From the NCBI RefSeq assembly GCF_036507355.1, contig NZ_AP027877.1: a DNA stretch of 64,000 bases; one strand, 5' to 3'. This DNA comes from Escherichia coli. Lineage in GTDB: Bacteria > Pseudomonadota > Gammaproteobacteria > Enterobacterales > Enterobacteriaceae. Every line of letters begins with the position of its first letter. Within the stretch, counting starts at the first letter, position 1. A program made the position numbers. This document shows positions 46,601 through 49,600 of the stretch, in pieces.

Positions 46601-49600
46601 TTGTTTTTGACGTAGCCGTTTTTGAACACGGCACCGATGATAGCCAGCGCCACATCCTGCGGCCCCACATACGGCGCTGGTTTTCCGGTCAGATGCACCG
46701 CAACAACTCCCGGATAGTCGATATCCCAGGTGTCATTAAGCAGCTGTTTTACCAACTCGCCACCGCCCTCACCGACTGCCATTGTCCCTAATGCACCGTA
46801 ACGGGTGTGGCTGTCTGACCCGAGGATCATTTTGCCGCCGCCTGCCATCATTTCACGCATATATTGATGGATGACCGCAATATGCGGAGGCACAAAAATA
46901 CCGCCATAACGCTGCGCTGCGGATAAGCCAAAAATATGGTCATCACCGTTAATAGTACCGCCCACCGCACACAGAGAGTTATGGCAGTTGGTCAGCACAT
47001 ACGGCAGCGGGAAACGTTCCATCCCGGAGGCTTTGGCTGTCTGAATAATGCCGACAAAGGTAATATCGTGAGAGGCTAAGGAATCAAACTTAATTTTAAG
47101 TTTATCCATATTTCCGGACGTATTATGAGAAGAGAGAATAGACCAGGCAATAGTGCCTTTTTTGGCTTCTTCTTTTTTAATTTCGCCGGTGAAATGTTCT
47201 TCAGCAATTATTTCGTTATTACTGGCGAGAAACACGCCTTTTTCAGATAACTTGATCATCAAATGCTCCAGATATCTGCGCACCGTGAAGTGCGCAGAAA
47301 GATAATAAATGGATATACTCTAAATAATTCGAGTTGCAGGAAGGCGACAAGCGAGTGAATCCCCAGGAGCTTACATAAGTAAGTGACTGGGGTCAGCGAA
47401 CGCAGACGCAGCACATGCAACTTGAAGTATGACGAGTATATTTACAGCATGTTCCAGCCGATCAGCATATTCCACCACCACACGCCGAGGGTGATATGCA
47501 CCAGGAAGGTTAATATCGTCAGTACCGCACCGACCAACCACCAGGATTTAATATCGTTATAACCCACGCCAAAGATGACAGGACCTGCCGCGCCGCCATA
47601 GTGAGTAACCATGCCGCCATAGGAGTTGGAGAACAACAGTGCCAGCGCGGTTAACATTAACGGTGCGCCGGAGACGTTCGCCAGCATGGCAAATACCGGT
47701 AACATAGCAACGATATAGGCACTACCGGAAGCGAAGAAATAACGCACGATGATGCTGAGGAAAATAATAACGAAGAAAGCAACGTTACCGTGACCATCAA
47801 ATGCCAGGTTATTTTTAAAGACTTCAGCTAACCATTCGAAGAATTTAACTTTCGATAATAAGGAGCTTAAGCCGATAATACCACCGTACCAGATTAAGGT
47901 ATTCCAGCCGCCTTTATTTTTAACCACGTCTTCCCAGGTAACAATACCCAGCAGCAGCATGGTTGCCATAACAACGATTGCCACGGTGGATTCATCAACC
48001 CCCAGAGACTTACTGAAAATCCAGCCCAGCAGCGCCAGCACAAAGACACCGAGCAGCATTTTTTCGCGGATTTTCATCGGTCCCAGTTCGGCAAGGCCCG
48101 CTTTAGCGATGGTTTTGTTATCCACCTTCTTAATTTCTGGCGGATACATGGTGTAAATCACCAGCGGAGTAACCAGCAGCATAATGATGCCCGGCAATCC
48201 GGCGGCCAGCGCCCATCCCCCCCAGCTAATTTGCAGGTGCAGAATGTCGTTGATCATTTTCAGCGCCAGAATGTTCCCCGCCATTGCGGTAAAGAACATA
48301 TAGCTGGTGGTTTTGGTGACCATGTAAATGGACATCATCAGGTAATGTCCGACACGACGCGGACTTTTTTCCGGTTCGGACCCCAAAGCCACCGCCACGC
48401 TGTTGATGATCGGTAACACAATGCCGCCCGCACGCGCGGTGTTAGACGGTGTTGCCGGAGCCAATACCAGATCGAGGAATACCGTAACGTAACCCAGACC
48501 CAGCGTGGTGTTACCGATTTTACCAATCAGCAGATAGGCAATACGTTTACCTAAACCGGTGGTCACAAATGCGGCGCTTAAGGTAAACGCCGAGAACACC
48601 AGCCAGGTAGTACCTGAAGAGTAACCGCTTAATACGGCGGTGGTCTTAAACGCACCGTCGGATAAGTTACCGACCACCACCATTGAGGCAGCAACGGCAA
48701 TTAACAGTACGACAGGTTCCGGGAAAGGCTTGATAACCAGACCCACAATGGCCGCCAGGTAAATACCAAAAAGCACCCACGCCAGTTCGCTTAATCCTGC
48801 CGGAGCTGGCATAAAGCCAATAATACATGGGATCGCTAATATCAGAATTAGCTTCCATAACGATTTCTTATTCATTTAAAATCCTGTTCTTTCTGTATGA
48901 CTCATACAGAAGTCCTTTATTGATTGTCCTTATCCTGACAACGAATTTTTTCAGGGAAGATAAACTTCACCGGAAAATATTTTTCTGGTCGTCCGAATAA
49001 CAGATGCGCGTAACGTCGTGGCATCCTGACCTTCATTACTTAAATGAACGTCGAGCGCACCACTGGGGTGTTCAATATTGATATTGCCGTATCCTACAGA
49101 AGGGACGATTTGTCGGGTGACGGTGCCTTCCAATGCACAACTACTGGAAATAGCAATAGCACCGGTTATCGCCAGCGCGCGATGGCAAGAATGCGGCATA
49201 AAATAACGCACATTAATTGCCCCGTCTTTCTGCGCTGGAGAAATAAGCACAGGTTTAGGGATAACCATATTACTGACATCACCTAAGCCCATTGCTTTAC
49301 CCGCTTGTAGACGGATAGATTCAATGCGGGCTAATAATGCTTTGTCGGCATCCAGTTCCGCCGGTAATTCATAACCTGTTTTTCCCAGATATTCAGCCGG
49401 AATAATGACGACTGGCATCGCCATATCGATACAGGTCACCGGGACATCGTCAAAATAATCAATCTGATTATCAGTCGGGAAAACTTTTCCGGTTTTCGTT
49501 CCAGCGGCATTCAGGAAAGTGAGCGCAACCGGTGCGGCAGTACCCGGTACGCCGTCAATTCTGGCGCTACCCTCGTACTCGACAACACCATTTGGCGTTT

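What the first reader, a model, noticed from the sequence alone, without database searches (positions are those of the whole stretch)
47330..47435. ERIC element in the ybhJ-ybhI spacer next to the IS-interrupted ybhJ start
Seen in sequence: the ERIC core gtgaatccccaggagcttacataagtaagtgactggggtcagcg lies between the ybhI stop (47442) and the ybhJ start (47259), with an additional hairpin (ctgcgcac-cgtgaa-gtgcgcag, 47276-47297) in the ybhJ leader. Likely backbone, but the promoter and leader of ybhJ are therefore embedded in repeat RNA structure.
Basis: partly seen in the sequence, partly recalled or inferred. Interest (0 to 1): 0.15.

Follow-up and report, generated by a model that had tools for sequence, protein, structure and literature searches.

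The report
Ordinary ERIC repeat between ybhI and ybhJ
This is a normal, full-length copy of the well-known 127-bp enterobacterial ERIC repeat, sitting one base after the ybhI stop codon exactly as in E. coli K-12; it is backbone sequence, though it has stayed almost unchanged across Escherichia species.

Summary
Window 47314-47440 is a complete 127-bp ERIC/IRU element. Its core matches the published core at 43 of 44 bases, it matches a consensus I built at 124 of 127, it has terminal inverted repeats, and TA lies at both ends. It sits between the ybhI stop and the ybhJ start. K-12 has the same element at the same site with 2 differences, as do 5329 of 5426 complete E. coli genomes, E. albertii and E. 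whittamii. One Escherichia lineage has a clean empty site with a single TA, which shows a TA target duplication. Another lineage keeps a 15-nt remnant.

IS600 splits ybhJ at about codon 397, 1.19 kb from the intact start. Nothing supports a ybhJ promoter inside the repeat. ERIC-free relatives have 26-91 nt spacers, so ERIC most likely lies between two genes of one operon.

The leader hairpin (47276-47297) is real, older than the ERIC, and kept with compensatory changes in Citrobacter.

The ERIC shows 0-1 differences in 127 bases between E. coli and E. albertii, while four-fold degenerate sites in the flanking genes differ by 32-35%. My best inference, untested, is a co-transcribed hairpin that affects the relative stability of the ybhI and ybhJ parts of the mRNA. 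Already known; low interest.

The parts
47314..47440 (+). Complete 127-bp ERIC/IRU element. The published consensus orientation is on the + strand. ybhI and ybhJ are on the - strand, so their mRNA would carry the reverse complement.
   Evidence: (124/127 to a consensus of 28 sequences, the window copy among them). Rfam's nearest model is V_AS5 at 47313-47436, 40.3 bits, below its gathering score of 96.
47355..47398 (+). ERIC central core inverted repeat, 43/44 to the published core. The one difference is G>C at 47394, specific to this window and in a predicted internal loop.
47314..47338 (+). Left terminal inverted repeat. The AU-rich stretch CTCTAAATAATTC at 47318-47330 reads GAAUUAUUUAGAG in - strand RNA, where it is the 3' arm. 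I propose it as a candidate RNase E site; this is inference.
   Evidence: I1, 26 nt, 81% complementary; compensatory changes in this stem.
47416..47440 (+). Right terminal inverted repeat. In - strand RNA it is the 5' arm and starts 1 nt after the ybhI stop. T at 47437 (A in K-12) makes the terminal 7 bp perfectly complementary.
47314..47315 (.). TA, one copy of the target-site duplication.
   Evidence: The empty site in L003 has a single TA: CTGTAAA-TA-TCC.
47439..47440 (.). TA, the other copy of the target-site duplication.
47442..48875 (-). ybhI, a DASS-family anion permease of 477 aa. Its TAA stop is at 47444-47442, 1 nt from the ERIC.
47276..47297 (-). Hairpin in the ybhJ leader, older than the ERIC. 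It lies 6 nt upstream of the Shine-Dalgarno sequence. No U-tract follows it, so it is not a canonical terminator.
   Evidence: Kept at empty-site Escherichia and, with a different stem sequence, in Citrobacter.
47266..47269 (-). Shine-Dalgarno GGAG of ybhJ.
   Evidence: Read from the sequence. GGAG is present at this position in all 15 orthologous loci examined.
46072..47259 (-). 5' fragment of ybhJ (aconitase-family hydratase, residues 1 to ~397). Start codon ATG at 47259-47257.
44810..46071 (+). IS600 (IS3 family) inserted in ybhJ. Context only, not part of the ERIC.
   Evidence: 99-100% identical to annotated IS600.
43730..44809 (-). 3' fragment of ybhJ (residues ~396-753).

Best explanation
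SHOWN. Window 47314-47440 is a canonical, full-length 127-bp ERIC (IRU/RU-1) element, a non-autonomous miniature inverted-repeat element. It inserted at a TA dinucleotide one base downstream of the ybhI stop codon, in what was a short ybhI-ybhJ spacer of about 57 nt. The insertion is old. It is shared at the same site and in the same orientation by E. coli (K-12 included), E. albertii and E. whittamii. One Escherichia lineage has lost it cleanly and another has lost all but a remnant. The copy is unusually well conserved.

INFERRED. ybhI and ybhJ are co-transcribed, so the ERIC is transcribed as the reverse complement of the published consensus. It would fold into a long imperfect hairpin of about -45 kcal/mol, independent of the older leader hairpin and of the ybhJ ribosome-binding site.

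Most likely mechanism, by analogy with the Yersinia ERICs studied by De Gregorio et al. 2005. The 5' arm of the hairpin begins 1 nt after the ybhI stop, so ribosomes terminating on ybhI would keep the base of the stem open. That would expose the AU-rich 3' arm (GAAUUAUUUAGAGUAUA) to RNase E. Cleavage would uncouple the amounts of the ybhI and ybhJ mRNA segments.

In this particular genome ybhJ is already broken by IS600, so any such effect on ybhJ no longer matters.

The confidence of 0.85 applies to identity and insertion history. I put the regulatory mechanism at about 0.3.
For: Identity: core 43/44, none in shuffles. Length 127 bp with terminal inverted repeats. 124/127 to a consensus I built from ERIC copies at many distinct flanking contexts, and the family similarity ends exactly at 47314 and 47440. 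Median 12 and maximum 21 matching places per complete E. coli genome, in line with the 19-21 copies reported for K-12 (PMC2267715).

TA duplication: the empty allele CTGTAAA-TA-TCC in L003, and the same allele in E. coli GF4-3.

Age: the same insertion is in K-12, E. coli E69, E. albertii and E. whittamii. L004 keeps AATTATTTAA-AAATA, which aligns to the last 16 nt of the ERIC arm.

Conservation: 0/127 (E69) and 1/127 (window, K-12) differences from E. albertii, against 32-35% at four-fold degenerate sites of the flanking ybhI and ybhJ. Binomial P is about 1e-20 to 1e-24.

Structure: z -6.4 on the transcribed strand. In the fold of the whole spacer the ERIC and the leader hairpin form separately, and the SD and AUG are unpaired in the centroid. 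Nine of 31 family base pairs show compensatory changes, for example pair 6-122 as UA 10, CG 10, AU 3.

Operon context: ERIC-free relatives have spacers of 26-91 nt, and the scan finds no promoter-like or terminator-like site in the spacer.

Mechanism precedent: reviews report that ERICs at the 3' ends of Yersinia genes are co-transcribed and lower the upstream transcript by unmasking an RNase E site in a terminal repeat, and that the effect depends on orientation (PMC2229807; PMC10969869; PMC3184786).
Against: No transcript data were available, so co-transcription, hairpin formation in vivo and RNase E cleavage are all untested. I could not read De Gregorio 2005, so I could not confirm that this orientation is the destabilising one. 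My own test of orientation against stop-codon distance, on about 30 sites, was too small to decide: 4 versus 1 sites within 4 nt of a stop. The strong conservation has other possible causes. E. coli-type ERIC copies at different sites are themselves about 95-100% alike, so gene conversion among copies could explain it. A short recombination tract could as well: the stretch identical between E69 and E. albertii is only about 190 nt. Compensatory changes in the terminal repeats could reflect recognition of the DNA ends by a transposase rather than RNA pairing.
Confidence: 0.85

Rival explanations
1. Neutral relic. The ERIC is a dead insertion with no effect on ybhI or ybhJ. Its sequence conservation comes from homogenisation with other ERIC copies (gene conversion), or from a recent short recombination tract moving between Escherichia lineages, not from selection at this locus.
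For: E. coli-type ERIC copies at unrelated sites are nearly identical to one another. The tract identical between E69 and E. albertii is short, about 190 nt, and bounded by substitutions. Two Escherichia lineages and one RefSeq 'E. coli' live without the element. This strain tolerates a broken ybhJ.
Against: The non-repeat part of the spacer cannot be homogenised by other ERIC copies, yet it is also conserved: 91-100% over 54 nt in every pairwise comparison, against 10-35% divergence at four-fold sites. So constraint on this spacer exists without any conversion. The element is retained in 5329 of 5426 E. coli genomes and three species.
Confidence: 0.45
2. One reading: the ERIC carries or encloses the ybhJ promoter and leader, so ybhJ expression is controlled from inside the repeat.
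For: The ERIC lies 54 nt upstream of the ybhJ ATG. Some miniature inverted-repeat elements in other bacteria carry promoters (PMC3184786).
Against: No sigma-70-like -35/-10 pair on either strand between 47260 and 47441. Species without the ERIC have 26-91 nt spacers and still have ybhJ directly after ybhI. The review table lists no DNA motif other than the terminal repeats for ERIC (PMC2229807).
Confidence: 0.05
3. The ERIC hairpin, alone or with the leader hairpin, acts as a transcription terminator or attenuator that separates ybhHI from ybhJ.
For: A long stable hairpin sits directly after ybhI. The literature treats ybhHI as one unit and lists ybhJ separately (PMC9068703).
Against: No U-tract follows either hairpin on the - strand, and the terminator scan finds nothing in the spacer. 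The leader hairpin is followed by AUAUCUGGAG.
Confidence: 0.1
4. Chance palindrome that is not a real ERIC.
For: None.
Confidence: 0.01

Closest known systems
ERIC / IRU / RU-1 (enterobacterial repetitive intergenic consensus; Sharples & Lloyd 1990, Hulton et al. 1991)
   Same: Same 127-bp length, same conserved core (43/44), same terminal inverted repeats, TA at both ends with a TA target duplication, intergenic position, multiple copies per genome, and a long single hairpin when folded. The very same copy is present in K-12.
   Different: Nothing that matters. Two SNPs against K-12: G>C at 47394 in an internal loop, and A>T at 47437, which restores terminal pairing.
Yersinia enterocolitica ERICs lying next to stop codons (De Gregorio et al. 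2005; summarised in PMC2229807, PMC10969869, PMC3184786)
   Same: The element abuts the stop codon of the upstream gene (1 nt). It lies between two genes of the same orientation. The AU-rich terminal repeat is on the distal side.
   Different: No expression data exist for this locus. I could not check the A or B orientation label against the paper. This is the E. coli subfamily of ERIC, and in this genome the downstream gene is a pseudogene.
Rfam RF02818 V_AS5 (Vibrio antisense RNA)
   Same: The model consensus contains an ERIC-like core, and it aligns to 47313-47436. Vibrio cholerae is known to carry 80-97 ERIC copies (PMC2267715).
   Different: The score of 40.3 bits is far below the gathering score of 96. 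Vibrio ERICs have eroded terminal repeats. This is homology between repeats, not membership of that RNA family.
REP/BIME elements
   Same: Intergenic, transcribed, hairpin-forming repeats of E. coli that affect mRNA stability. REP copies lie nearby at 42313-42357 and 43658-43727.
   Different: A different sequence family, about 35 bp long, spread by a different mechanism. Neither the ERIC nor the leader hairpin matches the REP model.

Membership tests
ERIC/IRU | Conserved central core inverted repeat (44-nt consensus core) | tested here: met
   43/44 at 47355-47398; 0 matches in 100 shuffles.
ERIC/IRU | Full element of about 127 bp with terminal inverted repeats | tested here: met
   47314-47440 is 127 bp. 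Arms are 26 nt and 81% complementary; the terminal 7 bp are perfect. 124/127 to the family consensus.
ERIC/IRU | TA at both ends and duplication of a TA target on insertion | tested here: met
   Filled site TAAA-TA[...]TA-TCC against empty site TAAA-TA-TCC in L003 and in E. coli GF4-3.
ERIC/IRU | Many dispersed copies at unrelated intergenic sites in enterobacterial genomes | tested here: met
   Median 12 and maximum 21 places per E. coli genome. 43 flank groups, about 30 distinct sites after removing chimeric contigs, among 120 metagenome loci.
ERIC/IRU | Folds into one long stem-loop, supported by covariation across copies | tested here: met
   z -6.4 and -8.9. 31 consensus pairs, 9 with compensatory changes. 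The central 32 nt are invariant by design of the search, so they say nothing either way.
ERIC/IRU | Lies in a transcribed region outside genes | not testable with these tools
   The intergenic position is shown. Transcription is inferred from the operon-like spacers, with no RNA data.
Stop-codon-proximal ERIC that destabilises upstream mRNA (De Gregorio 2005) | Element overlaps or abuts the stop codon of the upstream gene | tested here: met
   1 nt lies between the TAA (47444-47442) and the ERIC end at 47440.
Stop-codon-proximal ERIC that destabilises upstream mRNA (De Gregorio 2005) | The specific orientation (called B) that places the RNase E site in the distal terminal repeat | tested here: inconclusive
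   The AU-rich arm is distal here, but the paper is not held. My own orientation survey gave 4 against 1 sites within 4 nt of a stop, which is too few.
Stop-codon-proximal ERIC that destabilises upstream mRNA (De Gregorio 2005) | Co-transcription with both flanking genes, a lower upstream than downstream transcript level, and dependence on translation and RNase E | not testable with these tools
   Needs Northern blots, RNA-seq or rne mutants.
Intrinsic terminator | GC-rich hairpin followed by a U-tract | tested here: not met
   No terminator-like site between 47260 and 47441 on either strand. The leader hairpin is followed by AUAUCUGG.
Sigma-70 promoter for ybhJ | -35 and -10 hexamers with 16-18 nt spacing upstream of ybhJ | tested here: not met
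   The only site found in 47100-47600 lies inside ybhJ, at 47150-47122.
Rfam RF02818 V_AS5 | Score at or above the gathering threshold of 96 bits | tested here: not met
   40.3 bits.

The most novel reading that the evidence does not exclude
This ERIC copy is not junk. It is a selectively maintained intercistronic RNA element of a ybhH-ybhI-ybhJ operon. It has kept essentially every base since the E. coli / E. albertii split, while neutral sites next to it changed by a third. It works as a ribosome-sensitive hairpin: termination at the ybhI stop, 1 nt away, opens the stem and exposes an RNase E site. That would set the ratio of transporter (ybhI) mRNA to hydratase (ybhJ) mRNA.
Probability: 0.2. 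Interest if true: 0.35.

Novelty: already known. Interest (0 to 1): 0.1.

Why it matters
It matters little for discovery. ERIC has been described since 1990-91, and this very copy is part of the standard E. coli backbone. The practical value is in annotation. The ybhI-ybhJ spacer should be labelled ERIC (47314-47440) plus an older leader hairpin, not a promoter region. The damage to ybhJ in this genome comes from IS600 in the middle of the gene, not from anything at its start. The one result of some wider interest is that the locus offers a clean natural series: a filled site, a clean empty site and a remnant, with strong conservation of the filled allele. That series could be used to test whether E. 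coli ERICs affect mRNA stability as the Yersinia ones are reported to do.

Tried and rejected
1. The primary ERIC papers could not be read: De Gregorio 2005, De Gregorio 2006, Wilson & Sharp 2006 and Sharples & Lloyd 1990 are not held. Statements about the Yersinia mechanism therefore rest on reviews. Which orientation is labelled 'B' is left open.

2. Rfam has no ERIC family. The only hits over the element are sub-threshold: V_AS5 at 40.3 bits and isrH at 17.5 bits.

3. My first search for an empty site in E. coli genomes used a predicted junction and found nothing. The real empty allele differs by 2 SNPs, which left only a 27-nt exact word. Repeating the search with the L003 junction found one genome. 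The L004-type junction found none.

4. I surveyed about 30 independent ERIC sites for orientation against distance to a stop codon. Within 4 nt of a stop, 4 sites have this locus's orientation and 1 the opposite. Within 10 nt it is 5 against 4. This is not significant.

5. Promoter and terminator readings of the spacer were rejected by the scan.

6. The idea that the leader hairpin is part of the repeat, or is itself a repeat, was rejected. It occurs once in the window and is present at empty sites.

7. The Delihas 2007 paper had no mention of ybh genes and no printed consensus.

8. I did not work out what is at this locus in the roughly 97 complete E. coli genomes that cover less than 80% of the 301-bp query.

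Full report
**1. What is in the sequence**

The quoted ERIC core lies at 47355-47398 on the + strand. It matches the published 44-nt core with one mismatch, and none of 100 shuffles of the window gave a match. It runs from 47314 to 47440, 127 bp, beginning TATACTC and ending GAGTATA, with TA at each end. The repeat finder reports terminal arms at 47313-47338 and 47416-47441 (26 nt, 81% complementary) and the central palindrome at 47361-47392. Both strands fold into one long hairpin far more stable than shuffled sequence: + strand -57.4 kcal/mol, z -8.9; - strand -45.2 kcal/mol, z -6.4.

Rfam has no ERIC family. Its best model over the element is the Vibrio antisense RNA V_AS5, at 40.3 bits against a gathering score of 96. 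The consensus of that model visibly contains an ERIC-like core, and Vibrio cholerae is reported to carry 80-97 ERIC copies (PMC2267715).

**2. Neighbours**

On the - strand, 47442-48875 encodes a 477-aa DASS-family anion permease, YbhI. 46027-47259 encodes residues 1-397 of the PRK11413 hydratase, YbhJ, and 43730-44806 encodes its residues 396-753. Between these two fragments lies an IS3-family element that is 99-100% identical to annotated IS600. Comparison with K-12 places the insertion at about 44810-46071. So ybhJ is broken in the middle, 1.19 kb from an intact start codon, not at its start.

None of 5426 complete E. coli genomes has this insertion. Together with a second insertion sequence, IS621 at 42380-43656, this suggests a Shigella-like background. 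That last point is inference.

**3. Comparison with K-12 and other E. coli**

The 182-bp ybhI-ybhJ spacer has the same length in a K-12 derivative and differs at two positions. One is G>C at 47394, in the core. The other is A>T at 47437, which makes the terminal 7 bp perfectly complementary. In all, 5329 of 5426 complete E. coli genomes carry the locus over at least 80% of a 301-bp query.

**4. Family membership**

A blastn search with the 127-bp element finds a median of 12 and a maximum of 21 places per E. coli genome. This fits the 19-21 copies reported for K-12. A scan of metagenome contigs for the central 32 nt returned 120 loci. They fall into 43 flank groups, which is about 30 distinct insertion sites once chimeric contigs are set aside. 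25 of the 111 usable copies are at the ybhI-ybhJ site. Across these sites similarity starts and ends exactly at the positions that correspond to 47314 and 47440, and the window copy matches the consensus at 124 of 127. In 23 distinct copies the consensus fold has 31 pairs, 9 of them with compensatory changes. Pair 6-122, for example, is UA in 10 copies, CG in 10 and AU in 3. The central 32 nt are invariant only because they were the search pattern.

**5. Insertion history**

I fetched loci that encode YbhI relatives from one genome per species. The ERIC is at the same place and in the same orientation in E. coli E69, E. albertii and E. whittamii. Two other Escherichia genomes lack it.

- L003 (record title E. 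coli SCPM-O-B-8794) reads CTGTAAA-TA-TCCCTTCATT. This is the filled site minus the element and one TA, which demonstrates the TA target duplication.
- L004 (Escherichia sp. MOD1-EC7003) reads CTGT-AATTATTTAA-AAATA-TCC. MAFFT aligns this stretch to the last 16 nt of the ERIC arm, AATTATTTAGAGTATA, so it looks like a deletion remnant.

Because E. albertii is the most distant of these species at this locus (about 89.5% identity in ybhI), the simplest history is one old insertion followed by two losses. A small recombination tract carrying the ERIC into E. albertii is not excluded.

Among RefSeq complete 'E. coli' genomes, only GF4-3 has the clean empty allele. Citrobacter, Edwardsiella and Intestinirhabdus have ybhJ directly after ybhI and no ERIC in the spacer. 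The spacers of the Citrobacter and Edwardsiella loci measure 26-91 nt; Intestinirhabdus has 197 nt, and the C. koseri value could not be measured because of a frameshift in the locus.

**6. Conservation**

Between E. coli E69 and E. albertii the ERIC is identical at 127 of 127 positions. The window and K-12 copies each differ from the E. albertii copy at 1 of 127. Four-fold degenerate sites in the flanking ybhI and the 5' part of ybhJ differ by 32-35%. The binomial probability of so few changes at that rate is about 1e-20 to 1e-24. The remaining 54 nt of the spacer are also conserved, at 91-100% in every pairwise comparison.

This is real constraint or homogenisation. I cannot separate the two here, because E. 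coli-type ERIC copies at different sites are themselves nearly identical.

**7. The leader hairpin**

CTGCGCAC-CGTGAA-GTGCGCAG at 47276-47297 is real and occurs once in the window. On the - strand it folds as a 10-bp stem that ends 6 nt before the GGAG of ybhJ. It is present in the ERIC-free Escherichia genomes, where only loop positions vary. A hairpin occupies the same position with a different stem sequence in Citrobacter youngae (CUGUGCUCU/AGAGCACAG), C. koseri (CCGUGCAUG/CAUGCACGG) and others. It is absent from C. sedlakii, whose spacer is 26 nt. It therefore predates the ERIC and is a separate, probably functional, intercistronic hairpin. No U-tract follows it, so it is not a canonical terminator.

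**8. How it most likely works**

Shown: position, orientation, predicted structure, insertion history and conservation.

Inferred: ybhI and ybhJ are co-transcribed. The grounds are that ERIC-free relatives have very short spacers and that no promoter-like or terminator-like site lies in the spacer.

The mRNA would then read UAA-A-UAUACUCGUCAU...GAAUUAUUUAGAGUAUA, with the ERIC hairpin folding independently of the leader hairpin and leaving the SD and AUG free. Reviews report that in Yersinia, ERICs at the 3' ends of genes are co-transcribed. They lower upstream transcript levels when ribosomes prevent folding and unmask an RNase E site in a terminal repeat, and the effect depends on orientation.

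This locus has the required geometry. The stop codon is 1 nt from the 5' arm and the AU-rich arm is distal. I therefore favour a role in the relative stability of the two mRNA segments, at roughly 0.3 probability. The main rival is a functionally neutral relic kept uniform by gene conversion, at about 0.45. Promoter (0.05) and terminator (0.1) readings are weak. In this genome ybhJ is a pseudogene, so any downstream effect no longer matters.

**9. Verdict**

This is a correct identification of an ordinary, already known repeat that belongs to the E. coli backbone. The claims about a promoter inside the repeat and about an IS at the ybhJ start should be dropped.

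Noticed in passing
window 42380-43656 (ORF 42485-43465, - strand): An IS110-family IS621 element lies between ybhC and ybhJ, in place of about 90 nt of K-12 sequence. REP-like hairpins flank it (naRNA4 hits at 42313-42357 and 43658-43727). A few E. coli genomes carry IS621 at the same place (H26, H27).
   Followed up: partly
window 44810-46071: IS600 splits ybhJ near codon 397, so ybhJ is a pseudogene here. No complete E. coli genome of 5426 has this insertion, which points to a Shigella-like genome.
   Followed up: partly
L018 4484-4515 (E. whittamii ERIC): One arm of the central loop has changed from GCTCC to GTGAC. This turns the imperfect central palindrome into a perfect one (CCCCAGTCACTTAC-TTAT-GTAAGTGACTGGGG). 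It looks like a single template-switch or hairpin-correction event rather than independent substitutions.
   Followed up: no
L004 4432-4450 (Escherichia sp. MOD1-EC7003): A 15-nt stretch, AATTATTTAAAAATA, directly after the ybhI stop aligns to the end of the ERIC arm. It looks like a remnant left by an imprecise deletion of the element.
   Followed up: partly
window 47259-47444, - strand: After the ybhI TAA stop, the ybhI reading frame stays open for 60 codons, through the whole ERIC and spacer. It ends at a UGA that overlaps the ybhJ AUG (UGAUG). This fits the known 42-codon open frame of the ERIC reverse complement and is probably coincidence.
   Followed up: partly
window 47244-47278: An imperfect inverted repeat (16 nt, 81% complementary) brackets the ybhJ start codon and Shine-Dalgarno sequence. 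It could form a weak hairpin that hides the ribosome-binding site. It appears in the minimum-energy fold but not in the centroid.
   Followed up: no
L015 about 4450-4480 (Klebsiella indica, downstream of its ybhI homologue): The sequence ACCCGTCATATTTCAAGTTG resembles an ERIC terminal repeat. This may be an independent or degraded ERIC-like insertion after the same gene in another genus. blastn with the E. coli ERIC did not report it.
   Followed up: no
L075, L144, L157 (metagenome contigs): These contigs have the left flank of one ERIC site and the right flank of another. For example, L157 joins the ybhJ side to an unrelated locus. They are probably assembly chimeras formed at the repeat, though real recombination between ERIC copies is possible.
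   Followed up: no
window 48162-48410, + strand: A sub-threshold Rfam hit to Yersinia antisense sRNA Ysr283 (36.5 bits against a gathering score of 58) lies antisense to the ybhI coding region. It probably reflects conservation of the coding sequence.
   Followed up: no
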